The position numbers and the translations under genes were made by a program. A DNA stretch of 64,000 bases from positions 25,007 through 89,006 of the forward strand of contig CAYLMJ010000003.1 in assembly GCA_964384995.1 (NCBI GenBank). The letters are read 5' to 3'. The DNA is from an uncultured archaeon (lineage in GTDB: Archaea; Thermoplasmatota; Poseidoniia; MGIII; CAYLMJ01). Below are positions 5,693 to 34,519 of the stretch, in pieces. A model generated the notes under the pieces. It ran no database searches. It saw only the letters and a program-made list of their open reading frames with translations, and had not been told where the DNA came from. The number at the start of each line of letters is the position of its first letter. Position 1 is the first letter of the stretch.

Positions 5693-6973
5693 GTGGCCTA
5701 TTTTCCCCACGACCCGGATGATGACTTTGGATTGAAGCTCAATCGTTGGCTGGGACGCAAGGACCGCCAGCTGGCCTTGGAACTGCCCCATGCCCTCTAC
5801 ACCATGGAGCTCATGCTGGCCTCGGGAGCCGGGACCGAGGAGGCCATCCTCTACGTGGCCCGGGGTGATTACGGCCCTGTCTCAAAGCTATTTGCGGAGG
5901 CCGTCGACTCGGCCGCCGAGGGGGAGGTCCAGCTCTCCAAAGCTCTGCTGGCGGTGGGCCGTGCCTCGGGCTCGGAGCCCTTCCAGGAGGCAATGGACGA
6001 GCTGGTGGCCCGCATGGAGACCGGCTACGACGTGGGCAAGCGACTGGGCCAGTTCGCCTATCGCAACCAGCTCTACATACGACGGGCCAACGACGCCTTC
6101 TCCAACAGGTTCCGGGAGGTCTACCTGCCCGCCTACATGATCCTGGCCCTGCTGTTCCCATTCCTCTTTGGTTCGGTGAGCTTCTTTCTGGGCTCGGTGG
6201 CGGTCGGCGACGTTCCCCAACCCCCGCCCTGGCTGGCCTGGCCCTTTCCCTTCGTGAGCCTGGCCGTGGCCTGCTACATGATCCATGCCTCGCCACCCAT
6301 GGAACGAACGAGCCTGCGGGAACTCTATCTCTTCATGGTCCGCTATCCCTCGACCCAGGTGCTCATGATGGGTCTGGCGGTTGTAATATCCTTCTACGTA
6401 GGCTGGCTCTCCCTGGGCTTCGGCTTCGCCTCCGCCATCATCACCAGCCCCGGCTTCCTGATCCTGGCCCTCCTGGTCTTCGACCATTACGGGAACCAGA
6501 AGGCCGAGGAGGTGGAGAGCCGGTTCCGCCAGGGCCTGGAGGATACGGCCGATTACATCTCGGGCCATCACTCCCTGGAGTGGTCCATCAACCAGGGCTT
6601 CTCGGAAGAGTTCCTGACCGACCTCTGCCTGGTCCGGGACCGGTGGGAGCTGAACGAGGCCTTCAGGGATCTGGCTCGGCGCTTTCCACTGCACACCTTC
6701 AGGCGGACGGCGCTACTGATAAAGGCCTCCACCGAACGAGGCTTGGAGGTGGGCGATGCCCTGCGCATGCTGGCCAAGGGGCTGTGGGAGCATCACCTCA
6801 TCCGCTTTCGCCGCCGGGAGCAGAACCTGAAGGAACTGTTGTTGGGCATTATCATCATGCTGGGCGTGGCCGGCCTGCTCCCCATCGGCTTCACCTTCCT
6901 GCCCACCGCTCTGGCCATCGTGGGCCTGGTCGGATACCTCCTGGTCTACCTGGTGGGCGTTGGCAGGCTGTGA
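5693..6973 (+). CDS. Polytopic membrane protein with two T2SSF-like repeats (FlaJ/TadC/PilC-like pilus or archaellum assembly platform protein)
   Basis: Two cytoplasmic helical segments (ELMLASGAGTEEAILYVARGDYG... and ...GDALRMLAKGLWEHHLIRF...) are each followed by TM helix bundles. This architecture resembles GspF/FlaJ; the start is a GTG. Confidence 0.4.
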   Translation: MAYFPHDPDDDFGLKLNRWLGRKDRQLALELPHALYTMELMLASGAGTEEAILYVARGDYGPVSKLFAEAVDSAAEGEVQLSKALLAVGRASGSEPFQEAMDELVARMETGYDVGKRLGQFAYRNQLYIRRANDAFSNRFREVYLPAYMILALLFPFLFGSVSFFLGSVAVGDVPQPPPWLAWPFPFVSLAVACYMIHASPPMERTSLRELYLFMVRYPSTQVLMMGLAVVISFYVGWLSLGFGFASAIITSPGFLILALLVFDHYGNQKAEEVESRFRQGLEDTADYISGHHSLEWSINQGFSEEFLTDLCLVRDRWELNEAFRDLARRFPLHTFRRTALLIKASTERGLEVGDALRMLAKGLWEHHLIRFRRREQNLKELLLGIIIMLGVAGLLPIGFTFLPTALAIVGLVGYLLVYLVGVGRL

Positions 6974-8249: not shown

Positions 8250-10340
<2,091 letters not shown>

Positions 10341-11465: not shown

Positions 11466-11548
11466 GTGGGGGTAGCCAAGCCTGGAAACGGCGCCGGACT
11501 TAAGATCCGGTCCTTAGTGGTCCGTGGGTTCGAATCCCACCCCCCACA
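11466..11548 (+). tRNA. tRNA-Leu (anticodon TAA), class II with a long variable arm
   Basis: Acceptor stem GTGGGGG pairs with CCCCCAC. The anticodon stem-loop CCGGA-CTTAAGA-TCCGG gives anticodon TAA. There is a long variable arm and the T-arm is GTGGG-TTCGAAT-CCCAC. The discriminator is A and no CCA is encoded. Confidence 0.85.
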
Positions 11549-11549
11549 C

Positions 11550-21588: not shown

Positions 21589-22095
21589 ATGACCGAACTG
21601 GATTTGAAGAAGGATAGCAACGCAAGATCGGCAGTGATCGCCGTCGTCGCAATGATGCTCATCGCCTTGAGCCTTGCAGGCCTGTTGTATACTTGGAGCT
21701 CAAGCTTTCTGGAACAGGGTGAGGCGGCGCCCATAATCCAAATGGACTGCTCCAAGGACGCCAATGGCAACTACCGTTGCGTGGTCATCAAGGTCAGCAA
21801 GAGCTACTCCATGAAGGGAGGCACCTACTCTTTCTTCCTGAAGGATGAGACCGGTCTATCGAAGATGTTTGGACCATTGTACGAGATATACTGTTTTCGT
21901 TATGGCGACGGCAAGGGCGTGGTGTATGCCGATTACAACCTCGACACCCGCCTGAACGCAGGGGATGTATTCTACATATATCCCGATGAACCCGGCTCGC
22001 CCTTGGAAGGTATCGTTGACATGGATGATTACAAGCTGGAGATCAAATACAACATCACCGACAGCACCGTCGGCAGTTTCAAGCTAGGTGGTTAG
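21589..22095 (+). CDS. Pilin-like secreted protein with a class-III (type IV prepilin-like) signal-peptide-like N-terminus (A1)
   Basis: N-terminus MTELDLKKDSNARSAVIAVVAMMLIALSLAGLLYTW: charged, then a hydrophobic helix. The C-terminal domain ...CVVIKVSKSY...YSFFLKDETGLS...YKLEIKYNITDSTVGSFKLGG is paralogous to the C-terminus of ORF 32231..34009. Confidence 0.55.
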   Translation: MTELDLKKDSNARSAVIAVVAMMLIALSLAGLLYTWSSSFLEQGEAAPIIQMDCSKDANGNYRCVVIKVSKSYSMKGGTYSFFLKDETGLSKMFGPLYEIYCFRYGDGKGVVYADYNLDTRLNAGDVFYIYPDEPGSPLEGIVDMDDYKLEIKYNITDSTVGSFKLGG

Positions 22096-22192: not shown

Positions 22193-22223
22193 AAAAGCTG
22201 CCAAAGTATAATTGGTTGATCAA

Positions 22224-25200
22224 ATGAATGGAGCCTCCAGACTCACCATTCGCTCGCCCGGGTTTCTTCTCCTTTTCTCTTTGCTGGCGGGTGTGGTGGG
22301 CTCTGAATATGGTGGTTCCCGAGGTCACCAGAGGGGTTATGCACAACCATCCACAAGAGGCTCAGGTGAAGCATCGAATGAAAAGGCCTCCCGACCCTGG
22401 CCGGCCTCAGAGCTCCGCCGCTGGCCCATTGAACGATTGATGAAACGGGCCCTGGAACTGGAACGCTCCGCTCCCCGCAAGGCGCTGATGCTCTACTATC
22501 ACCTGACCGAGCGCTCGACCATGGTCCTGCGTCGTTCCATGCGGCTCTTTGCCATCATCGTGTCGGCCTACAGTCTCATCTTCTCCATCTTCTTGAACCT
22601 GGGCCTGTCGATATTCTTCTTCATATCTCTCGTCGGAGCCTGCCTCTACCATCCCCGGACCAAAGTGGATCGCAACCTGGGTTACCTGGCCCAGCTGGGC
22701 ATCGCCCGCTGTTACATGCTTCTGGGAGCTCCCTACAAGGCCTATCGCTACCTCGAGGTGGCCCGGGTGGAGAGCCCGCCCCGCCTCAAGGCCCTGCACG
22801 AGTCCCTCCTGGCCATCATCCGCGGCCGGCGCAAGCAGGCCCTGGCCCATCTCGATCGGGCTCGAGAACGCCACAACGATCTTCGCACCTGGGGTCTCGC
22901 CTGGCCCTACTACCGCTCCTCGGCCACCAACACCGGAAAACTGATGGGAGCCATGAAGCCGGGCGCAACATCTCGCAGTGAGCAAGCCAAGAAGGGAACC
23001 TCAACTGGCGTGGACGCGAGGCCGGTACGACACCATCGCGAGCGGGCGGTTTCAGGGAATGCTCATCAGATCCAGTGCATTCACAAGGGTTCGGCCCCCA
23101 CCAAACATCAGCTGTTGAAGGAGGCCTTCCGGCTGGAGCCAACCAAGCCCCATTCGGCCATCTACCTCTACAACCAGGTGGGTCTGAAATCCGAACGGGC
23201 CCTGCGCAAGCTGGCGCTCCTGTTCCTGCTCATCCTGATCCCCCTGACCCTGGACAGCGTCTGCTTCATCTTCGTCATCCTCAGCCTGGTCATCGTGCTC
23301 CTGATATACGGCGAGCCCCACCGCTTCGTGGTGGCCCGGGAACTGGCACCCCTGGGAGCGGCTCGATGCTACCTGCGCACCGGTCAGACCAACCAGGCCA
23401 ACCGTCGTCTGAACCAGGTCTTCAAACGCCGCCTCCCCTACCTGCGTCCCCTCTACAATGCCACGGTCTCCATCGGGGCCGGGCGCAACGATCAGGTGGA
23501 ACACTACCTGAAGAGGTCCCCGCTGTACAATCTCAGCAAGGCGAGCCAGTTCTACTATCGCAGCTCCCTGGAGCTGACCCGGCGGTTGAGCAAGGACCTG
23601 GCGGTCGAGAACTTCGACGTGGCCACGAAGAGCCCGCAGGATGAGCGCTGGAGAAAGCCGGCGCAGGCCGCAAGGTCCTCACCCGCGGAGTCCAAGACCG
23701 ATGAGCCCACGCCCGAGAAGCCTATACCGGTGGCAAGCAAGCCTCTCACAACCGACGCGGTGAGCTCTGCCGAACCGGTGGTATCGGTGATCAACGATGA
23801 GGGTCATCTGGACCCCACGGTCAAGGCCGGGGAGCCCGACCCCCTGACCTTCACCATCGGCTCCCGGATCTACCATCTTAACCTGGGCGCCGGCACCATC
23901 CAGGCCCGCTTCCCCCACGGGAGGAACTGGCGCCTGAGGGTCCAGTTCGACCGCTCCACCGAGATCCACGATGTCATCTCCAACTACCTCACCCCCATGG
24001 GGAAAGCGACCGCCGTCGAACCCCCTTCCAAGCCCGAAGGTGTGGTCGCCAGGTTCGCCGGACCTCCCGGGGTACGCCCCATCGCGGATCGCAACCTGCG
24101 TCCGGTCCTGCCCTTTGCCTCGCCTGTCACCCCCAACGCGGCCATGGCGTCGCGACCCCTTCCCGCTCCGATCCCGGTCCAGGCCTCCTCTGCTGGTCAA
24201 CCCGCCCCCCGAGTACCCCACCGGGAAGTCCTGCAGGAGCCCTACCATGTGGAATGGATGGATCTGATAACTGTGGAGGCCAGCGGGACCCCCGACCTTG
24301 AAGATGAAATCACAACCGAGCCCGAGCCCGTACAGGTGTCCGAACCCGAACCAGCCTCTCAGCCTGAGCTCCAACAGGAGTCCCAACCAGACCCCCAACC
24401 GGAGTCCCAACCAGACCCCCAGCCATCTGCCCCACCGGTATCAGCCACTGAGGGATCTGCCGAGGCAAACCACCCCAGCTCATGGCCGGTCCAGTGGGTC
24501 GATGCCGAGGTGGATGACCGGGTGGCCGAGCTCGACCAGCGCCTCGCCGAGCTGACCCAGCTGGTCCTTGAGCCCAAGGATGAACCGGACCCAGCTCCCA
24601 CTCCTGCCTCAGCCCCCGAAGCGACCCAAGTGGAGGTGGAGGCCCAACTCTCCCATCGACAGGCTCAGGTGCTCTACCTGGTCCGGGTCAGGAACCTTTC
24701 ATCCCGCCCCATCCTCGATGTGAAGGTGAAGCTTCATCTTGAGGGTCTTCAATTCAAAGTGGTGCAGGAGGCTCCCAACCAAAACTCCCTGGCTCCAGGA
24801 GGTTCAGGCAAGTTCCTCTACCTGCTGGAGCCCACCACCGAGGGAGCCAATGGCACCCTCAAGGCCGACCTCAGCTACATCGACCATCAGGGCGGCATGA
24901 CCGTGGAACAGCCCATCGAGGCCCTTGCCACCGGGATAGTGTGGCCCAGGCTGTCCGATATGAGGACCGACCGCAAGTGGCGCGAGGTCACCCGGGGGCT
25001 CGTATCCCACAAGGAGCGCTTCGACGGCGCTCCCCTGCCGCCGGGCCTCCTGTTCGAGCTGGTCTGCCGCATCCTGGGCGATCTCAACCTGCGCTCGCGC
25101 AAGCCCAAGCTCATCGAGACCTCCTCGTTCTATTCAGGCCGGGCACGATTCATGGCCCAGGATGAGGCTGGCAGATCCTGCGCGGTCCAGGCCGAGGTGG

Positions 25201-25427
25201 TGGGCGGCCCCCTGCGGACCCGTCTTCTGCTCAGGGTCTACGCCCCCTGCGAGGCCTCGGTGGCGGGACTCTATCATCTGGTGCGGGAGGAGCTGACCCT
25301 GCGCCTGGAGGTGGGCGAGGCCTCCGACCCGGTGGTCTACCAGGTCAACGGCGACTTCGTCGAGGGCTCCAAGACCGAGGTGCGCGACTCGGTGGTCAGC
25401 CGCTGGGCGGCCAACTCCGACGCGTAG
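22224..25427 (+). CDS. Large membrane protein B1: duplicated TM-hairpin module, long disordered Pro/Glu-rich linker and the conserved C-terminal cytoplasmic module shared with B2 and B3
   Basis: Two copies of a helix plus two-TM hairpin plus (E)LAPLGxARCY(L/M) module are present. The C-terminal approximately 330 aa aligns with the C-termini of ORFs 25631..27952 and 28907..32059 (...EVVGGPLRTRLLLRVYAP...LRLEV...VYQVNGDFVEGSKTEVRDSVVSRW). Confidence 0.7.
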   Translation: MNGASRLTIRSPGFLLLFSLLAGVVGSEYGGSRGHQRGYAQPSTRGSGEASNEKASRPWPASELRRWPIERLMKRALELERSAPRKALMLYYHLTERSTMVLRRSMRLFAIIVSAYSLIFSIFLNLGLSIFFFISLVGACLYHPRTKVDRNLGYLAQLGIARCYMLLGAPYKAYRYLEVARVESPPRLKALHESLLAIIRGRRKQALAHLDRARERHNDLRTWGLAWPYYRSSATNTGKLMGAMKPGATSRSEQAKKGTSTGVDARPVRHHRERAVSGNAHQIQCIHKGSAPTKHQLLKEAFRLEPTKPHSAIYLYNQVGLKSERALRKLALLFLLILIPLTLDSVCFIFVILSLVIVLLIYGEPHRFVVARELAPLGAARCYLRTGQTNQANRRLNQVFKRRLPYLRPLYNATVSIGAGRNDQVEHYLKRSPLYNLSKASQFYYRSSLELTRRLSKDLAVENFDVATKSPQDERWRKPAQAARSSPAESKTDEPTPEKPIPVASKPLTTDAVSSAEPVVSVINDEGHLDPTVKAGEPDPLTFTIGSRIYHLNLGAGTIQARFPHGRNWRLRVQFDRSTEIHDVISNYLTPMGKATAVEPPSKPEGVVARFAGPPGVRPIADRNLRPVLPFASPVTPNAAMASRPLPAPIPVQASSAGQPAPRVPHREVLQEPYHVEWMDLITVEASGTPDLEDEITTEPEPVQVSEPEPASQPELQQESQPDPQPESQPDPQPSAPPVSATEGSAEANHPSSWPVQWVDAEVDDRVAELDQRLAELTQLVLEPKDEPDPAPTPASAPEATQVEVEAQLSHRQAQVLYLVRVRNLSSRPILDVKVKLHLEGLQFKVVQEAPNQNSLAPGGSGKFLYLLEPTTEGANGTLKADLSYIDHQGGMTVEQPIEALATGIVWPRLSDMRTDRKWREVTRGLVSHKERFDGAPLPPGLLFELVCRILGDLNLRSRKPKLIETSSFYSGRARFMAQDEAGRSCAVQAEVVGGPLRTRLLLRVYAPCEASVAGLYHLVREELTLRLEVGEASDPVVYQVNGDFVEGSKTEVRDSVVSRWAANSDA

Positions 25428-28906: not shown

Positions 28907-31900
28907 ATGCGTAACTCCCGTCTACTGGTCGGCCTGGTTGGCCTGGGCCTGCTCATCCTGCTCCTTTCCCTGGTGTCAGAGGTATCCGCCCAGACCAGGT
29001 TGGAGGGCAAGGTCACCGATAGGTTCGATGATGGTGTTCAGATGAAGGGGGTCGTCATCGTTCTCACTAAAGAGGACAATGATACCCTGGTATACAATTT
29101 CACCACGGATGCATCGGGCTATTATTCCGAAGAAAAGATGGAACCAGGGAAGTACACATTCGAGGTTTCCCTTGAAGGATACTGGGACCGCGAGGGTAAG
29201 GTGGAGCTCAGCGAGAATGAAACATTCAAACGCGACTTTCAACTATTGCCCAAGGAGGCCGGCAAGGGACTCTTCTGGGGATTCATCAGTAAGTCCCAGG
29301 ATGGTGGGCCAATCGACCATGCGGCCCTGACCATGGAACGTGTCTCCGGCGGACCGACCCAGATCTATCGAACGACCGTGGAAGAGGATGGCTACTTCTC
29401 CAGACTTTTGAATCCTGGTGGATACGACCTTTGGATCGCTGCCTACGGCTATGAAGCAAAAGCCCACGGGACCGAGCAGGTGAAGGACCAGACACCGACC
29501 CGTTACGATTTCTACCTGGACCACGAGACCTCCACCACCAACACCTTCATGGAGAGCTGGATCAAGGATGACAAGGACAACCGGCTGGCCGGGGTCGGCG
29601 TATCCATCACCAAGGATGGCGGCCGCCAGGCCGATCACTTCACCATCAGCGACGCCAACGGCTGGTGGCAGGTGGGTCTGGACAATGGTGGTTCCTACCA
29701 GGTCGACTACCAGCTGGAGGGCTACGGTCCCGTCCAACAAGTGTTCACAGTCAATGAGGGCCAGACCAACCCCGTCGATGTCCAGGTCCTCATTCTCAGA
29801 CCCGACGCCAGCATCGATGGCATCAACACCGGTCATGCGGGTTTCGCGGTCAAGGGCGAGGACATCGTGTTCAAGGGCTCGGCCAGCGGTGGCAGCGGCA
29901 CCTATACCGATCTCGAGTGGAGCTACACCGAACCCGGAGGCGGTTCCCAGGAAACCCTCGGCAGCGGCGACACCCTGACCAAGAGCATTCCCGTCGGCCT
30001 CCAATCGGGCACCTACTCCATCCACCTCAGGGTTCGCGATGACAACGGTCAGTGGAGCGAGACCGTCAGCCAGGAGCTGGAGGTGTATGGCAGACCCAAG
30101 GTCGAGATAGACCTCCAGGGCACCAACAACCCCACCACCGCCGACACCACCGTCATGGGTACCAACGTCCTATCCAGCGACTTTGGCATCGCCAGCCATC
30201 AGTGGCAGCTCTTCCAGGACTCCATCGACAGCGAGCAGCGCCTGGCCGGGGACCAGGAGAGCTTCGAGATCAGGTGGTTCGATCACGGCCTGGAGCCCGA
30301 TGTCTACATCGTGCGGCTGAGGGTCACCGACGAGTACGGGCTGGTGAGCAACTGGGCCACGCAGGATCTGAGCCTCCATGACCAGAACGAGAACCGCCCT
30401 TACATCGAGGGGCTCAACAAGTACGAGTTCTATCCCGATGACTGGCTGGAGGCCCACGGCAACACACAGGGTGCCGACACCGACGATTTCAAATGGGAGA
30501 TAGACGGCCGGGACGTCAGCCACGACCAGAACCTCCATGTCAACCTGAGGGATCTGGACCTGGACCAGGGCGAACATGAGATAGTCTTCGCCTACCACAA
30601 CAGCGAGGACGGCTGGGTCTACAGCGAATCTCAGCGTTTCTACTACAATGCCGATGAGGGGCCCGAGCCCCAAGAGGTCATCATTCCACTGCTGATCATC
30701 TTCATCATCCTGATGCTCATCCGCCGCCGCCGCAAGCGCAAGAGGCGAGCCAAGAAGGAGGCCAAGAAGGCCGCCAAGGCCCCGGCCATCCCCCGGGCCA
30801 CCGCCGCCCCTGGGCTGAACGTGCCCGAGAGCAGTCTCTACGATGGAGGGGCCTCGCCCTACGCCCCCCGGGCCAGGACCGGCCGGCAAAAGGCGCCGGT
30901 CATCGATCTTGCAAGACCCCGGTCGCAACGACCGCACTTGAAGGGCGAGGGTGCTGCCCCTGTGTTCGGAACCTCCATGCCGGACATCGATGGCAAGGGC
31001 AAGCCCAAGGCTCCCGAGGGCAAGATCGAGCTCAAATCGGCGGTCAATTACGAGAAGGCCAACATCATCTTCAAGGTCAAGGTGGAGAACAACACTGACA
31101 AGCCCATCGCCGAGGTGCGGGTGCGGCCCTTTGCCCCCACCAATCTCTTCAAGGCCGACAAGGAGGAGCGCACCATCGGGCTGATCCAACCCAAGCAGGC
31201 CCAGACGGCCACTTTCAAACTGCGGCCCAGGGGCGAGTGCGGCAACGTCACCCTGCAGGCCAAGGTCACCTACTACGACACCGGCACCAACAAGTACGCC
31301 GAGCAGGACGCCAAGCCCCGGGAGACGGCCATCATCTGCCCCATGCTCAAGTATGAGGACATAGACGAGGATGAGTGGCGCAAGAACGTCTCCAAGATGC
31401 TCAAGGTGGAGGAGACCACCGACAAGATTCCCATGGATGGCGAGTCGCTCTACTCCATGGTCTGCGACGTCTTCCAGGACCAGAACCTGACATCCATCTC
31501 GATGAACGTGGACCGGGGCCGGGTCTTCCGCGGCCGGGCCATGTTCTGGGCCAAGGGGGCTGTGGCGGCCAAGGGCCTGGGCTACGCCGCCCAGATCGAG
31601 GTCATCGGCGGCGAGCTGAAGTCCAAGCTCATCCTGAAGGCCTTTGCCAAGGGCGAAGACTCCCTGGTGGGCTTCTACCACTGCCTGCTGGACGAGATCG
31701 AGAAGCGCACCAGCGTCCGCGACTACCTGGACACCGGCGTCACCGTCCAGCATGTCTACGGTGACATGGTCAAGGGTGGCAAGGTGGACATCAAGGACTC
31801 AGTGCTCCAGCGCTCCAACATCACCACCGAGAGCGCCCCCTCTGGATCCGGCGACGATGACGACCCCTACCTGGACGTCAAGGGCGACAAGGTCGAGGGC

Positions 31901-32059
31901 GGCAAGGTCGAGATCCACGACTCCGTCGTAACCAGGTCCAAGGTGGGCCCCGATGGCGAGGAACGGTTATCGGCCGGCGATGACACCACCGGCAGTCTGG
32001 ACGAGGGCATCGACCAGCTCAGGAAGTTCGTCAAGGACGATGAGAAGGACGAGAAGTAG
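28907..32059 (+). CDS. Large type-I membrane protein B3: signal peptide, carboxypeptidase-regulatory-like and PKD-like ectodomains, TM anchor with a poly-basic stop-transfer, and the conserved C-terminal cytoplasmic module
   Basis: Signal peptide MRNSRLLVGLVGLGLLILLLSLVSEVSA. TM segment IIPLLIIFIILMLIRRRRKRKRR. C-terminal ...IEVIGGELKSKLILKAFAKG... ending in two copies of G(D/K)xV(K/E)GGKV(D/E)I(K/H)DSV(L/V)xRS. A GGAGG sits 8 nt upstream of the ATG. Confidence 0.7.
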   Translation: MRNSRLLVGLVGLGLLILLLSLVSEVSAQTRLEGKVTDRFDDGVQMKGVVIVLTKEDNDTLVYNFTTDASGYYSEEKMEPGKYTFEVSLEGYWDREGKVELSENETFKRDFQLLPKEAGKGLFWGFISKSQDGGPIDHAALTMERVSGGPTQIYRTTVEEDGYFSRLLNPGGYDLWIAAYGYEAKAHGTEQVKDQTPTRYDFYLDHETSTTNTFMESWIKDDKDNRLAGVGVSITKDGGRQADHFTISDANGWWQVGLDNGGSYQVDYQLEGYGPVQQVFTVNEGQTNPVDVQVLILRPDASIDGINTGHAGFAVKGEDIVFKGSASGGSGTYTDLEWSYTEPGGGSQETLGSGDTLTKSIPVGLQSGTYSIHLRVRDDNGQWSETVSQELEVYGRPKVEIDLQGTNNPTTADTTVMGTNVLSSDFGIASHQWQLFQDSIDSEQRLAGDQESFEIRWFDHGLEPDVYIVRLRVTDEYGLVSNWATQDLSLHDQNENRPYIEGLNKYEFYPDDWLEAHGNTQGADTDDFKWEIDGRDVSHDQNLHVNLRDLDLDQGEHEIVFAYHNSEDGWVYSESQRFYYNADEGPEPQEVIIPLLIIFIILMLIRRRRKRKRRAKKEAKKAAKAPAIPRATAAPGLNVPESSLYDGGASPYAPRARTGRQKAPVIDLARPRSQRPHLKGEGAAPVFGTSMPDIDGKGKPKAPEGKIELKSAVNYEKANIIFKVKVENNTDKPIAEVRVRPFAPTNLFKADKEERTIGLIQPKQAQTATFKLRPRGECGNVTLQAKVTYYDTGTNKYAEQDAKPRETAIICPMLKYEDIDEDEWRKNVSKMLKVEETTDKIPMDGESLYSMVCDVFQDQNLTSISMNVDRGRVFRGRAMFWAKGAVAAKGLGYAAQIEVIGGELKSKLILKAFAKGEDSLVGFYHCLLDEIEKRTSVRDYLDTGVTVQHVYGDMVKGGKVDIKDSVLQRSNITTESAPSGSGDDDDPYLDVKGDKVEGGKVEIHDSVVTRSKVGPDGEERLSAGDDTTGSLDEGIDQLRKFVKDDEKDEK

Positions 32060-32138: not shown

Positions 32139-32185
32139 AGGGGACTGGGGATATTTCGGGGACTTCCCGCGAACCGGCTATATAG
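32139..32185 (+). promoter_or_regulatory. Shared promoter element copy 4: AGGGGACTGGGGATATTTCGGGGACTTCCC, then 9 nt, then CTATATAG
   Basis: Sits about 45 nt upstream of the ATG at 32231. Confidence 0.55.
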
Positions 32186-32230
32186 GCAGAACCGGAGCCA
32201 TCATCGGTCGTCAGACGGCCAGTGAAGCAA

Positions 32231-34009
32231 ATGAAAGACCATGATGAAGATTTCGGTAACGGACAGTACCATACAACAAAGCCTCCCCTGTTGTTTCCCA
32301 ACCTGAGTGAGAACCTAATGAGGTACTTTTCCATCCGGGGATTCATCTCTATCTACTTCGCCTTTTTAGCGTTGATATTCCTGCTCGGGGGTATCGCTAA
32401 CGTAATCCTTTTTTTCATCCTCCCAGAAATGACCTACTTCAATCTCATAATGGGCCTAGCCAGTTTTCATTTAGGCCTTGGTCTGGCTTATCTATCTCGG
32501 TATATCTGGAAAGGAGCGGAAAATGGAGATAGCAAGAAAAAGAAGTGCGAACTGGTCGCATTTAGCTTTGCTTGTGTGATTCTGATATTGGGCACATTTT
32601 TGTGGATTGATAATTATCTGATCAACAATTATATGCGCGACTATGATGACTATTTCCGAATAATAATGCTATTGCCTGTTTTGTTATTGATAGTACTAGT
32701 ATTGGGGTTGCTGATTATCAATAAGATATCCGTCTTTAAAGAGTTATCAAACGCGAAAACATTACGGTGGTTCACGATCCATTTAGTGATATTGTATCCC
32801 TTCATATTCCTTGAATGGTTATTCCTTATTTTCTTTTCCTTTGGAGTAGCTTTTATTATAATTGCGTATACGGGTTTTTGGCTTCGATATGTATTTAAAG
32901 GTAATCTATACAGAAAATCAACAACTATGCCTGTCCAATACTGCGATGATGGGCTGTATTCCTATTTAGCCCTATATGGTGGGTTAAGCTGGATGCCGAT
33001 CTTGGCAACGTTGGCATTGATGATGTGTTTTGGTTTCATGAATTGCTCAACGGTCCTGTTCCATCCGTCCGAGATAGCTGTTATTGTGATTTTTATTACT
33101 CTCTCAATAACACCGCTGTTCATCCTAATGATAAAATTAAGAAATCAATATCATAATCCATATAGATTATTATCAATATGGTTGTGTTCCGTATCACTCC
33201 AATACATCGCTGTTTTAGGTTTGATAATTGATCCAAGGATGGAAGGATTCGGTGGTACGATCAGTACCGTCATCTACTTCACCTGGCCCATCACCTTGCT
33301 GATCCTATCAATATGTTCGAAACTAGCAATTTCCACATGGAAAACAAATGAGAATAGTGTGGAAGGCAGAAATCATTCAAGCCTTTCTATTATACCCGCC
33401 ATAGTCATTTTCCTAGTATTGCCAATTATTTCCATCAATTACGCATACTCAGTGGATTGGCCTGATGAACCATATTATGGTTATGGCCCGCTCATACAAA
33501 TCGAATGTATCGAGAACGACAATGATGATTATGAATGCAAGGTCATCAAGATATCAAGAAACTACGATCTTGAAGCCTACCAGTACTTCCTGAAGGATCG
33601 CACCGGTTTGACCAGCCAGTTCGGTGAGATCGCTCTACAGAACATCAGCGGCTCCTGGCATGGTATAGATGTCACGTGGGACGACGACGGCCCTGCTGAT
33701 ACCAACCAAGGTAACAGCAAGGCCGACCGTGCCAAGGATTCTGGTGGTGCTTACATTGACACCGACCAGGCCCAGATCCGCATAGATGATGTCCAGGCTG
33801 GGACCCAGGGAACCAAGAACAACCAGAAGAGCGAGGGCCGCATCTCGGCATCATTTATGGACAACGACCGCAACGGCAAGCTCACCGCTGGCGATCAGTT
33901 CACCATCAGAGGCAACCAACCATATCATCCAGCCAATGACGGCTGGAGACTGGAGATAAAGTACGACATCTCTGACGACACAATCGGCTCCTTCTTGCTA
34001 GGGGCCTGA
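32231..34009 (+). CDS. Chimeric membrane protein A2: N-terminal polytopic domain of about 10 TM helices with foreign low-GC codon usage, fused to a C-terminal pilin-like extracellular domain paralogous to A1
   Basis: Nucleotides about 32280-33550 are about 38% GC with A/T-rich third codon positions, against about 63% GC nearby. The C-terminus ...ECKVIKISRNYDLEAYQYFLKDRTGLTSQFGEI...WRLEIKYDISDDTIGSFLLGA aligns to A1. Confidence 0.65.
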   Translation: MKDHDEDFGNGQYHTTKPPLLFPNLSENLMRYFSIRGFISIYFAFLALIFLLGGIANVILFFILPEMTYFNLIMGLASFHLGLGLAYLSRYIWKGAENGDSKKKKCELVAFSFACVILILGTFLWIDNYLINNYMRDYDDYFRIIMLLPVLLLIVLVLGLLIINKISVFKELSNAKTLRWFTIHLVILYPFIFLEWLFLIFFSFGVAFIIIAYTGFWLRYVFKGNLYRKSTTMPVQYCDDGLYSYLALYGGLSWMPILATLALMMCFGFMNCSTVLFHPSEIAVIVIFITLSITPLFILMIKLRNQYHNPYRLLSIWLCSVSLQYIAVLGLIIDPRMEGFGGTISTVIYFTWPITLLILSICSKLAISTWKTNENSVEGRNHSSLSIIPAIVIFLVLPIISINYAYSVDWPDEPYYGYGPLIQIECIENDNDDYECKVIKISRNYDLEAYQYFLKDRTGLTSQFGEIALQNISGSWHGIDVTWDDDGPADTNQGNSKADRAKDSGGAYIDTDQAQIRIDDVQAGTQGTKNNQKSEGRISASFMDNDRNGKLTAGDQFTIRGNQPYHPANDGWRLEIKYDISDDTIGSFLLGA

Positions 34010-34067
34010 TTGGTGAACAACCCCACTATCACAAACTTTATCAAGGCCCGCCTTCATGAATTGACCA

Positions 34068-34277
34068 ATGGACTCCGAGATAATCTTTCTCGTTGAAGAA
34101 TCAATTGAAGGCGGCTTCGAGGCCCGTGCTCTCGACCATTCGATCTTCACTCAAGGTGAGACCTTTGAGGAATTGAAGGAGATGGTCAAGGATGCTGTCA
34201 AGTGTCATTTCGAAGCTGATGAGAGGCCCTCAGTCATCCGCCTCCACCAGGTAAAGGAGGAGGTAATGGCGGCTTGA
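34068..34277 (+). CDS. hicB: HicB-family antitoxin (UPF0150 type)
   Basis: 69 aa, ...IIFLVEESIEGGFEARALDHSIFTQGETFEELKEMVKDAVKCHFEA, the RNase H-like HicB pattern. Its stop overlaps the start of hicA. Confidence 0.6.
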   Translation: MDSEIIFLVEESIEGGFEARALDHSIFTQGETFEELKEMVKDAVKCHFEADERPSVIRLHQVKEEVMAA

Positions 34278-34519
34278 GGCTACCTCGCAACGTATCTGGC
34301 ACACAATTGGCCAAGGCTTTGGGAAAACTGGGCTACGTGTTGGTTCATCAGACCGGAAGCCATATGCGACTGACCCGTCGAGTAGATGAAGAGCACCATC
34401 TGACGATACCCCGACATAAACCGCTAAAGGTCGGAACTCTGAATGGTATCCTCAAGGATGTTGCTGAACACCTGGCCATCAGTCGTCTGGACCTTCTGGA
34501 ACTGCTATTTGGAAAATAG
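34274..34519 (+). CDS. hicA: HicA-family toxin (YcfA-like mRNA interferase)
   Basis: 81 aa, VSGTQLAKALGKLGYVLVHQTGSHMRLTR...HLTIPRHKPLKVGTLNGILKDVAEHL, matching the HicA dsRBD-like motif GSH...H. TTG start overlaps hicB. Confidence 0.65.
   Translation: MRLPRNVSGTQLAKALGKLGYVLVHQTGSHMRLTRRVDEEHHLTIPRHKPLKVGTLNGILKDVAEHLAISRLDLLELLFGK

What the first reader, a model, noticed from the sequence alone, without database searches (positions are those of the whole stretch)
32231..34009. Intragenic compositional chimera: a roughly 1.3 kb low-GC polytopic membrane domain fused in-frame to a native-composition pilin-like domain
Within one ORF, nucleotides about 32280-33550 are about 38% GC with A/T-ending codons (tta, att, ata, aga, aat), against about 63% GC and G/C-ending codons in flanking genes. 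GC climbs back to about 52% across the C-terminal domain, which is paralogous to A1. The last TM helix of the foreign part sits exactly where A1 has its class-III-signal-peptide-like helix. This suggests recent acquisition of a foreign membrane-anchor segment that replaced a prepilin-type N-terminus. Such a change could convert a cleaved and assembled pilin-like subunit into a permanently membrane-embedded one.
Basis: seen in the sequence. Interest (0 to 1): 0.65.

Follow-up and report, generated by a model that had tools for sequence, protein, structure and literature searches.

The report
Pilin head on an 11-helix membrane anchor
A marine archaeon (probably class Poseidoniia) has a real, conserved gene that joins an AT-rich 11-helix membrane domain with no known relatives to the outer "head" domain of its pilus protein; sister lineages share this odd composition, so it is not a recent foreign insert or an assembly error.

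Summary
ORF 32222-34009 (595 aa) contains a 1.27 kb stretch at 38.8% GC, against 62% for the rest of the window (z = -7). GC3 is 0.45 where 0.86 is expected, and CAI is 0.24. Transmembrane (TM) segments of other genes keep GC3 at 0.84, so hydrophobicity explains only about a third of the drop.

The C-terminal 180 aa is up to 75% identical to the head domain of Poseidoniia type IV pilins that carry PF07790. The N-terminal 410 aa fits an 11-TM, N-in/C-out model and has no relatives in 1.84 billion representative proteins.

"Recent acquisition" is not supported. Two sister lineages (L003/L004 and L006) carry the same fusion at the same locus, with the same low GC3 confined to the polytopic part. 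Their housekeeping proteins are 87-95% identical to the window's. pN is well below pS, and synonymous divergence is saturated. Misassembly is excluded.

The target has no class III signal peptide, so it is most likely a permanently anchored, non-polymerising display of a pilin head. No donor was found. Why GC3 stays low is unresolved. I rate it a new variant of a known kind, of moderate interest.

The parts
32160..32184 (+). Conserved promoter-like element GGACTTCCCGCGAACCGGCTATATA (BRE/TATA-like). It ends 37 nt before GTG 32222.
   Evidence: It is unique in the window, with 0 matches expected by chance. It is conserved upstream of the orthologous ORF in L003/L004 and is duplicated there in front of the second ORF. 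Promoter function is inferred.
32222..34009 (+). The whole fusion ORF, 595 aa plus stop. The alternative start is ATG 32231.
   Evidence: Both GTG and ATG are conserved in L003.
32222..32341 (+). Predicted cytoplasmic N-terminal tail, aa 1-40.
   Evidence: K+R = 5 in the hand-built topology table.
32342..33448 (+). Polytopic domain without known relatives, aa 41-409. It is modelled as 11 TM helices, N-in/C-out, and is the low-GC, low-GC3 core.
   Evidence: In the TM segments I assigned, inside loops have K+R = 5,6,4,4,3,2 and outside loops 0,1,0,0,1. AF2 gives 10 helical segments, one of them 52 aa long. GC is 0.38, GC3 0.45 and CAI 0.24. The only relatives are in L003/L004/L005 and L006.
33383..33448 (+). 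Last TM helix (aa 388-409, LSIIPAIVIFLVLPIISINYAY). It sits where canonical family members have the class III signal peptide and assembly helix.
   Evidence: Alignment A1. There is no PF07790 match for aa 387-595 at E<=0.05. There is no [KRDE][GA] cleavage-type motif.
33449..34006 (+). Linker (SVDWPDEPYYGYG) plus the extracellular pilin-type head domain, aa 410-595. It contains the conserved QNIS sequon.
   Evidence: 20 homologues, 37-75% identical, five of them carrying PF07790. The AF2 model is a beta-sandwich with pLDDT 73. The best PDB match is the C. divulgatum CdiP pilus, 8rey_A.
21589..22095 (+). A1, a short paralogue of 168 aa. It has one N-terminal helix and a head domain lacking the central ~50 aa.
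   Evidence: GC3 is 0.69 and CAI 0.49. It has no PF07790 hit and no cleavage motif.
34068..34519 (+). hicB-like (34068-34277) and hicA (34274-34519) toxin-antitoxin pair. It forms the downstream end of the compositionally atypical block.
   Evidence: HicA PF07927 at 9e-14; HicB-like only weak, at 0.043. GC3 is 0.60 and 0.49. VapB/PIN replaces it in L003 and L006.
5693..6973 (+). PilC/TadC/FlaJ-type platform protein (T2SSF domain). It shows the genome has type IV filament machinery and serves as a compositional control.
   Evidence: PF00482 at 3.7e-13. GC3 is 0.84.

Best explanation
The ORF is a genuine, vertically inherited gene of a high-GC archaeon, probably of class Poseidoniia.

It encodes a membrane protein that fits an 11-TM model, with the N-terminus in the cytoplasm and the C-terminus outside. 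The extracellular C-terminal 180 aa is the beta-sandwich head domain of this clade's type IV pilin family. In canonical members the head follows a cleavable class III signal peptide and assembly helix (EG|VSPVIAVILMVAITVV...). Here that signal is gone. The head instead hangs from the last helix of a fast-evolving polytopic domain that has no known relatives.

The product therefore most likely cannot be processed by a prepilin peptidase or polymerised. It probably stays in the membrane and displays a pilin head at the cell surface, as an adhesin- or receptor-like module (inferred). The polytopic part is under purifying selection, so it may do more than anchor (inferred).

The fusion predates the split of at least three sister lineages. 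The intragenic compositional step is a stable property of the gene, not a scar of recent transfer. Synonymous sites of the polytopic part sit near intergenic composition. They appear to escape whatever keeps GC3 near 0.84 elsewhere in the genome. The cause is unresolved.
For: Shown:
- The ORF is continuous and the compositional step is real.
- The head domain is 75% identical to P0003, which scores 50.5 bits on PF07790 against a cutoff of 25.2.
- The family profile hits the Natrinema pilin PilA2 at E = 0.0012.
- The top Foldseek PDB hit is the C. divulgatum CdiP pilus, probability 0.98.
- The canonical family is found in Poseidoniia MAGs.
- The target has no PF07790 match and no cleavage-type motif.
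- My hand-assigned 11-TM model obeys the positive-inside rule at every loop.
- The syntenic relatives L003/L004 and L006 carry the polytopic-plus-head fusion between the CarboxypepD_reg gene and AdoHcyase.
- The three lineages are roughly equidistant. AdoHcyase is 93-95% identical, the head 67-69% and the polytopic part 40-53%.
- Window against L003 gives pN/pS of 0.31/0.71 for N1, 0.26/0.63 for N3 and 0.21/0.64 for the head.
- GC3 of the polytopic part is low in all three lineages: 0.45, 0.51-0.63 and 0.40, against genome values of 0.84, 0.77 and 0.87. In L003 the head is at native GC3, 0.74.
- 4-fold sites of the polytopic part are at GC 0.47, against an intergenic mean of 0.51.
- L003 lacks exactly four of the TMs assigned in my model (aa ~107-244). 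Removing an even number preserves the topology.
Against: - No function is known for the polytopic domain. The single-sequence AF2 model is unusable (pLDDT 52.6).
- The count of 11 TMs depends on reading one 52-aa helix as a hairpin.
- Non-cleavage is inferred from sequence only.
- In L003 the gene is split into a 99-aa ORF and a 359-aa ORF, each behind a copy of the promoter-like element. The N-terminal two helices may therefore be separable or dispensable.
- An internal transcription or translation start producing a single-TM product is not excluded. Gene callers chose such starts in P0005 and P0007.
- dS is saturated, so dN/dS values are rough.
- Only three lineages are known, all from a few ENA assemblies.
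- An ancient foreign origin for the polytopic part remains possible.
Confidence: 0.68

Rival explanations
1. A foreign low-GC membrane-anchor segment was recently acquired and replaced the prepilin N-terminus in this genome.
For: - GC3 is 0.45 and CAI 0.24 in the polytopic part.
- The adjacent hicAB module is also atypical, and the toxin-antitoxin slot varies between relatives.
- The domain has no relatives in the family or elsewhere.
- Low-GC (36-39%) Poseidoniia exist and could in principle be donors.
Against: - The same fusion and the same GC3 step occur at the same locus in L003/L004 and L006.
- Divergence inside the segment is larger than in the flanks (40-55% aa, pS 0.63-0.71), with pN below pS.
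- No donor was found by HMMER over 1.84e9 representatives, by two JGI metagenome scans or by three viral scans.
- There is no tRNA, integrase or flanking repeat at the borders.
Confidence: 0.12
2. The polytopic domain arose de novo, or by progressive N-terminal extension, from AT/T-rich non-coding DNA upstream of a pilin paralogue. Its composition would then reflect its non-genic origin.
For: - It has no known relatives.
- Its 4-fold-site GC of 0.47 is close to the intergenic mean of 0.51.
- The coding strand is T-rich, with negative AT skew. T-rich sequence readily encodes TM-like segments; this point is my own recollection, not checked here.
- The upstream region is plastic, with a 4-TM indel and a promoter duplication in L003.
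- Family members with intermediate N-terminal extensions exist, for example P0006 and P0008.
Against: - Eleven helices with a fully consistent positive-inside pattern, and pN well below pS in both conserved blocks, indicate a mature, constrained protein.
- No non-coding homologue of the segment is known.
- Saturated synonymous divergence should have erased an ancestral composition unless something maintains it.
Confidence: 0.1
3. The feature is an artefact: a chimeric contig or misassembly join inside the gene, or a spurious ORF through non-coding AT-rich DNA.
For: There is an abrupt compositional step. Gene callers on other assemblies did not call the N-part (P0001, P0005 and P0007 start at internal Met).
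Against: - L001 (ENA ERZ23499064) is 100% identical over 32648-34361, across the 3' step.
- L003, L004 and L005, from three assemblies, and L006 reproduce the upstream gene, the intergenic element, the N-part and the head in the same order.
- tblastn gives 54% aa identity over 176 aa (E = 3e-55) at 67% DNA identity, which shows coding constraint.
Confidence: 0.01
4. The low GC is simply a consequence of encoding a very hydrophobic protein.
For: Amino-acid composition lowers expected GC from 0.62 to 0.54, with GC1 0.28-0.50 and GC2 0.15-0.47.
Against: - GC3 is 0.45 against 0.86 expected.
- TM segments of other genes have GC3 0.84.
- The H+-PPase (15 TM) has GC3 0.82.
Confidence: 0.03

Closest known systems
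Archaeal type IV pilins with a class III signal peptide (Pfam PF07790 Pilin_N). The closest are the Poseidoniia pilin family represented by P0003/P0004. Solved examples are the C. divulgatum CdiP pilus (8REY) and the Natrinema pilin PilA2 (8GI2).
   Same: The head domain is homologous, up to 75% identical to PF07790-bearing proteins. It is predicted to be a beta-sandwich, it keeps the conserved QNIS sequon, and a hydrophobic helix immediately precedes it.
   Different: There is no N-terminal class III signal peptide or cleavage motif. The helix is the eleventh TM, lying behind a ~385-aa region (cytoplasmic tail plus ten TMs). It is 4 residues shorter and lacks the otherwise invariant GVSPVIAVILMVAITVV...LYVWASSFLEQGE sequence. 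Assembly into a filament is therefore unlikely.
Other non-canonical members of the same head-domain family: lipobox-anchored forms (P0009, P0013, P0022), forms with a cytoplasmic extension plus TM (P0006, P0008, P0017), and the form with a Zn-ribbon, an acidic region, a TM and two heads (L002 834-3092).
   Same: The same head module is attached to something other than a cleavable pilin leader. This shows that the head is a shuffled surface module in this clade.
   Different: Those anchors are single-pass or lipid anchors. The polytopic anchor occurs only in the window, L003/L004/L005 and L006.
Compositionally atypical genomic islands acquired by horizontal transfer.
   Same: GC, GC3 and CAI deviate strongly, a toxin-antitoxin module is adjacent, and the neighbouring cargo is variable.
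   Different: The island is conserved at the same locus in sister lineages. It has no mobility genes, tRNA or border repeats, and no donor was found. The boundary lies inside a gene, at a domain junction.
Wzx/Wzy-type polytopic surface-polysaccharide proteins. I recall these as low-GC, rare-codon genes in otherwise GC-richer genomes; this is my own knowledge and was not tested here.
   Same: They are polytopic, very divergent, persistently AT-rich and rare-codon genes in a cell-surface context.
   Different: The target has no match of any kind in Pfam or NCBIfam, so no membership is supported. They are also not fused to a pilin head.

Membership tests
Archaeal type IV pilin (PF07790 / class III signal peptide protein) | An N-terminal class III signal peptide: a short charged leader, G/A at -1, then a hydrophobic helix, matching Pilin_N. 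| tested here: not met
   There is no PF07790 hit for the whole protein at E<=0.1 or for aa 387-595 at E<=0.05. A FlaFind-like motif, recalled from memory, matches P0003 but not the target, A1, L003 or L006. The helix begins at aa 388.
Archaeal type IV pilin (PF07790 / class III signal peptide protein) | A globular head domain homologous to that of bona fide pilins. | tested here: met
   It is 75%, 72% and 69% identical to P0003, P0004 and P0010, which carry PF07790. P0003 scores 50.5 bits against a cutoff of 25.2.
Archaeal type IV pilin (PF07790 / class III signal peptide protein) | A pilin-like beta-sandwich fold for the head. | tested here: inconclusive
Archaeal type IV pilin (PF07790 / class III signal peptide protein) | Processing by a prepilin peptidase and polymerisation by a PilB/PilC machine. 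| not testable with these tools
   Only indirect evidence exists: a T2SSF/PilC-like gene at 5693-6973. No peptidase or ATPase was identified in the window.
Recently horizontally acquired island | Atypical composition relative to the host. | tested here: met
Recently horizontally acquired island | Absent from the syntenic locus of close relatives. | tested here: not met
   It is present in L003/L004 and L006 between the same flanking genes.
Recently horizontally acquired island | An identifiable donor or homologues elsewhere, plus mobility signatures at the borders. | tested here: not met
   The only hit to the polytopic part beyond its last TM is P0023, which comes from the same clade; a profile search recovered only P0005/P0007, overlapping the last TM and linker. 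Nothing was found in the JGI or viral scans. There is no tRNA and no significant border repeat.
Known polytopic families (T2SSF/FlaJ, prepilin peptidase A24, Wzy/Wzx, GT-C etc.) for the N-terminal domain | A profile match to the family model. | tested here: not met
   Zero families in Pfam-A and NCBIfam at E<=0.1. The structure model is too poor for a fold search.
HicAB toxin-antitoxin (downstream neighbour) | A HicA toxin domain with an upstream small antitoxin gene overlapping it. | tested here: met
   HicA PF07927 at 9e-14. The HicB-like match is weak (0.043). The two genes overlap by 4 nt.

The most novel reading that the evidence does not exclude
The AT-rich, rare-codon state of the polytopic domain may be actively maintained rather than inherited. 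It may mark a young clade-restricted membrane domain, or one that arose de novo, grafted onto a pilin head. The result would be a new class of archaeal surface protein. Candidate roles are a membrane-embedded pilus-associated anchor or nucleator, or a decoy or receptor carrying the same head as the filament. Candidate maintaining forces are domain-specific selection for slow translation during membrane insertion, or exclusion from GC-biased recombination that homogenises the multi-copy head domain. If true, the locus would be a natural example of an intragenic compositional boundary held in place by selection through speciation.
Probability: 0.12. Interest if true: 0.75.

Novelty: new variant of a known kind. 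Interest (0 to 1): 0.45.

Why it matters
1. It is a clean counter-example to reading low GC and low CAI as recent horizontal transfer. Here the anomaly is intragenic, stops at a domain boundary and has survived saturating synonymous divergence in three lineages.

2. Gene callers consistently truncated this gene in the other assemblies (P0001, P0005 and P0007 start at internal Met). The polytopic domain is therefore almost invisible in protein databases, and similar cases may be under-counted.

3. Marine Group II/III archaea are abundant and, to my knowledge, uncultured. This pilin head is reused on at least five kinds of anchor: class III leader, lipobox, extended single TM, Zn-ribbon plus TM, and 11-TM. 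That points to a modular surface-display system that may bear on particle or cell attachment.

The practical limits are that the function is unknown and no genetic system exists for these organisms.

Tried and rejected
- **Donor search for the N-terminal 415 aa.** phmmer against 1.84e9 representatives found only P0023, the 80-aa N1 ORF of L003. The full-length word-indexed search found only a self fragment, P0001, and the head-domain protein P0002. A profile of the conserved 5-TM block found only P0005 and P0007, through the last TM and linker.
- **DNA-level scans.** Two JGI metagenome scans found nothing. Three viral scans found nothing.
- **Family profiles.** Pfam and NCBIfam gave no hit on the target.
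- **Structure of the N-domain.** AF2 from a single sequence gave pLDDT 52.6, so I did not run a fold search on it.
- **Viral fold library.** BFVD gave no meaningful match for the head.
- **Internal repeats.** None found in the polytopic domain.
- **Island borders.** No tRNA, Rfam family or significant flanking repeat.
- **Hydrophobicity as the cause.** Rejected as a sufficient explanation.
- **Misassembly.** Rejected.
- **Ancestral state of the locus.** I asked whether P0006/P0008 (single TM with a cytoplasmic extension) represent it. They lie in a different paralogue cluster next to ApbA and ribosomal protein S15, so they do not.
- **Literature.** I found no description of polytopic-pilin fusions in the Makarova 2016 survey, using term searches. 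A Marine Group II pilin search gave nothing relevant.
Full report
**1. The observation**

The window contains one uninterrupted ORF, 32222..34009 (+), of 595 aa. It starts at a GTG, with an ATG three codons later at 32231.

- GC falls to 0.32-0.43 between about 32.3 and 33.5 kb and recovers to 0.51-0.57 in the last 450 nt.
- It is by far the deepest trough in the 64 kb.
- Exact figures: 32280-33550 is 0.388 GC. The mean of 1178 other windows of equal length is 0.622 (sd 0.033, minimum 0.531), so z = -7.1.

I built a codon table from 32 other genes of the window and used it to split the effect.

- For aa 37-415 the expected GC, given the amino acids, is 0.54, while the observed value is 0.38.
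- About one third of the drop is therefore amino-acid composition and two thirds is codon choice.
- GC3 is 0.45 against 0.86 expected. CAI is 0.24, against 0.56-0.84 elsewhere.
TTA is 22% against 1%. ATA is 35% against 10%. AGA is 36% against 5%. AAT is 81% against 14%.

They do not.

- 893 TM codons of other genes have GC3 0.84.
- The 15-TM H+-PPase (8250-10340) has GC3 0.82.
- The PilC-like protein (5693-6973) has GC3 0.84.
- No other gene has any 100-codon window with GC3 below 0.58. The target reaches 0.38.

The C-terminal domain is not fully native. It has GC3 0.64 and CAI 0.51. The downstream hicB/hicA pair is also atypical, at 0.60 and 0.49.

**2. The two halves**

*The C-terminal 180 aa*

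- It has 20 database homologues, 37-75% identical.
- Five of them begin MKRKQWDDEEGVSPVIAVILMVAITVVLAAVLYVWASSFLEQGE and carry Pfam PF07790 (archaeal type IV pilin N-terminus). P0003 scores 50.5 bits against a cutoff of 25.2.
- A scan of one genome per species found 23 loci. By record title, seven are Poseidoniia, Poseidoniales, Thalassarchaeaceae or Marine Group III. Most of the rest are labelled only "uncultured archaeon", "Methanobacteriota archaeon" or "Euryarchaeota archaeon". One is labelled Flavobacteriaceae (section 7).
- About 17 of the 23 loci carry the same, almost invariant leader and helix, in genomes from 36% to 68% GC.
- A profile of the family weakly hits the Natrinema pilin PilA2 (E = 0.0012).
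- An AF2 model of the head is a beta-sandwich (pLDDT 73). Its best PDB match is the Cuniculiplasma divulgatum CdiP pilus (8rey_A, probability 0.98). The E-value is only 8.6e-3 and the TM-scores are 0.33/0.42.
- "Pilin-like" is therefore supported for the head by homology, and only weakly by fold.
- A1 (21589-22095) is a shorter paralogue (E = 2e-13 and 6e-10) that lacks the central ~50 aa of the head.

*The N-terminal ~410 aa*

- It has no Pfam or NCBIfam match.
- Apart from fragments of itself, it has one hit in 1.84 billion representative proteins. That hit is P0023, an 80-aa ORF from the syntenic relative.
- A profile search added nothing beyond hits through the last TM. Two JGI metagenome scans and three viral scans were empty.
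- I assigned eleven TM segments by hand. In that model the inside loops carry K+R = 5,6,4,4,3,2 and the outside loops 0,1,0,0,1. This places the head outside.
- AF2 from a single sequence gives 10 helical segments, one of them 52 aa long, which I read as a hairpin. At pLDDT 52.6 the model is otherwise unusable.

*The junction*

- The last TM (aa 388-409) aligns where the pilin helix sits.
- It is 4 residues shorter than the pilin helix.
- It has no G/A at -1 and does not match PF07790.

**3. Related loci change the interpretation**

*Continuity.* L001, a 1714-bp ENA contig, is 100% identical to 32648-34361 and spans the 3' compositional step. It may come from the same sample as the window.

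*Synteny.* More importantly, L003 and L004 (two assemblies) and L006 come from related organisms. They have the same neighbourhood: diphthine synthase, a ~1050-aa CarboxypepD_reg protein, this gene, a toxin-antitoxin pair, AdoHcyase, an AsnC-type regulator, SQS_PSY and an M6 peptidase. L005 is a short third-assembly contig that covers only the last TM, the head and vapB.

*The gene in the relatives.*
- The called genes there (P0007 of 205 aa, P0005 of 213 aa) start at internal Met codons.
- The open frames continue upstream into homologues of the polytopic domain.
- L003 has a 99-aa ORF matching aa 20-106 (53% identical).
- L003 also has a 359-aa ORF matching aa 245-595. The polytopic part of that match is 54% identical at E = 3e-55.
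- L003 lacks aa ~107-244. In my model that is exactly four TMs, an even number, so the topology is preserved.
- L006 is cut by its contig end but carries the last four TMs plus the head.

*Divergence.*
- The three lineages are about equidistant. AdoHcyase is 93-95% identical, the AsnC-type regulator 87-92% and SQS_PSY 89-90%. The M6 peptidase is 77-80% identical, the head 67-69% and the polytopic block 40-53%.
- Window against L003 gives pN/pS of 0.31/0.71 (N1), 0.26/0.63 (N3) and 0.21/0.64 (head). AdoHcyase gives 0.04/0.32.
- The polytopic part is therefore coding and under purifying selection. It evolves fast, and its synonymous sites are saturated.

*Composition in the relatives.*
- GC3 of the polytopic part is low in every lineage: 0.45 in the window, 0.51-0.63 in L003 and 0.40 in L006. 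The host values are 0.84, 0.77 and 0.87.
- In L003 the head is fully native at 0.74, so the step falls at the same domain junction.

*What follows.* The fusion and its compositional step predate the split of these lineages. "Recent acquisition" and "chimeric contig" are both rejected.

**4. What keeps it AT-rich**

This is unresolved.

- 4-fold sites of the polytopic part are nearly uniform (A .32, C .23, G .23, T .21; GC 0.47). That is close to the intergenic mean of 0.51. The same sites are at 0.80-0.84 in control genes.
- These sites therefore behave as if exempt from the force that raises GC3 genome-wide.
- Expression level cannot explain a boundary inside one gene.
- General membrane-protein effects are excluded by the controls.

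Candidate explanations, all inferred:
- domain-specific selection for slow or rare codons;
- lack of GC-biased gene conversion in a single-copy domain with no paralogues, in contrast to the multi-copy head;
- repeated replacement from an unsampled AT-rich pool;
- a non-genic origin.

**5. Likely mechanism**

Canonical family members are cleaved at EG|VSP and use the invariant helix to pack into a filament. That is established for type IV pilins in general (PMC12448462, PMC4858521). For this family it is inferred.

The target lacks the site and the conserved helix, and it carries ten additional TMs upstream. It most likely stays in the membrane and displays the head at the surface.

The head is used modularly in this clade. 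It occurs with:
- lipobox anchors (P0009, P0013, P0022, L019, L024, L025);
- a cytoplasmic extension plus one TM (P0006, P0008, P0017);
- a Zn-ribbon, an acidic region, a TM and two tandem heads (L002 834-3092).

The purifying selection on the polytopic part suggests it does more than anchor. What it does is unknown.

**6. Comparison and novelty**

The closest known kind is the archaeal type IV pilin family. The head qualifies as a member. The protein as a whole fails the defining N-terminal signal test, so I do not file it as a pilin.

- Term searches of the 2016 survey of archaeal type IV pili found no polytopic-pilin fusion.
- The neighbouring hicAB pair is replaced by vapBC in the relatives, so the adjacent slot is genuinely variable.
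- I rate the finding a new variant of a known kind, of moderate interest.
- The most interesting residue is the stable intragenic compositional boundary, together with the fact that gene callers miss the domain.

**7. Other observations**

- A ~45-nt promoter-like element, including GGACTTCCCGCGAACCGGCTATATA, lies 37 nt upstream of the start codon. It is conserved in L003, where a second copy precedes the 359-aa ORF.
- The window has a tRNA-Leu(UAA). It would read the UUA codons, which are otherwise rare in this genome.
- One GTDB contig labelled Flavobacteriaceae (L028) carries the archaeal pilin and is probably mis-binned.

Noticed in passing
window 34068-34519; L003 10705-11342; L006 1020-1667: The toxin-antitoxin module directly downstream of the fusion gene differs between relatives. 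The window has hicB-like/hicA, with low GC3 (0.60 and 0.49). L003 and L006 have vapB/PIN. The slot between the fusion gene and AdoHcyase is therefore a variable toxin-antitoxin cassette site.
   Followed up: partly
window 32160-32184; L003 9106-9130 and 9479-9503: A conserved promoter-like element (GGACTTCCCGCRAACCGGMTWTATA, within a ~45-nt conserved block) precedes the gene. In L003/L004 it is duplicated: one copy lies before the 99-aa ORF and one before the 359-aa ORF, each 35-37 nt from the start codon.
   Followed up: partly
L003 9168-10618 (and identical L004): The orthologue lacks the equivalent of aa ~107-244, which is four TMs in my model. It is split into two ORFs of 99 aa and 359 aa. 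The same structure appears in two independent assemblies, so the split is real in that population.
   Followed up: yes
P0001 (L001), P0005 (L006), P0007 (L003-L005): Gene callers started all database versions of this gene at internal Met codons and omitted the AT-rich polytopic part. Protein databases are therefore nearly blind to this domain.
   Followed up: yes
L010-L028 (genome-contig hits): About 40 residues of the canonical pilin N-terminus (EGVSPVIAVILMVAITVVLAAVLYVWAASFLEQG.) are essentially invariant across genomes from 36% to 68% GC. The pilin gene's GC is pulled toward 0.43-0.57 in both directions.
   Followed up: no
L028 (NHFW02000028.1): A contig of a MAG labelled 'Flavobacteriaceae bacterium TMED121' encodes the canonical archaeal Poseidoniia pilin. 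It is probably a mis-binned archaeal contig.
   Followed up: no
L002 834-4504; L030 5373-8753; L033 3796-7681: There is a separate paralogue cluster of head-domain genes. In L002 and L033 its first gene is a 741-aa protein; in L002 that protein has an N-terminal Zn-ribbon, a long acidic region, one TM and two tandem heads. L030 has a 579-aa protein at that position. This is followed by genes of ~212-215 aa and ~250 aa in L030 and L033. In L002 a single two-head gene of 396 aa follows instead. The cluster sits next to ApbA and ribosomal protein S15 genes.
   Followed up: partly
L007 113-8037: A canonical pilin gene lies between a KaiC/RecA-like ATPase pair and a 1825-aa protein containing the WWDYG motif of AglB/STT3 oligosaccharyltransferases. 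The head domain also carries a conserved QNIS sequon.
   Followed up: no
window 11466-11549: This is a tRNA-Leu with anticodon UAA. UUA is 1% of Leu codons in the window's other genes but 22% in the polytopic domain.
   Followed up: no
window 5693-6973: This gene encodes a T2SSF (PilC/TadC/FlaJ-type) platform protein, so part of a type IV filament machinery is encoded 25 kb upstream. No ATPase or prepilin peptidase was identified in the window.
   Followed up: partly
window 22212-22360 and 28907-29500: The 5' ends of some large secreted-protein genes have reduced GC3. The first 50 codons of 22212..25427 are at 0.48, and codons 51-200 of 28907..32059 are at 0.58-0.65. This is much milder than in the target.
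   Followed up: no
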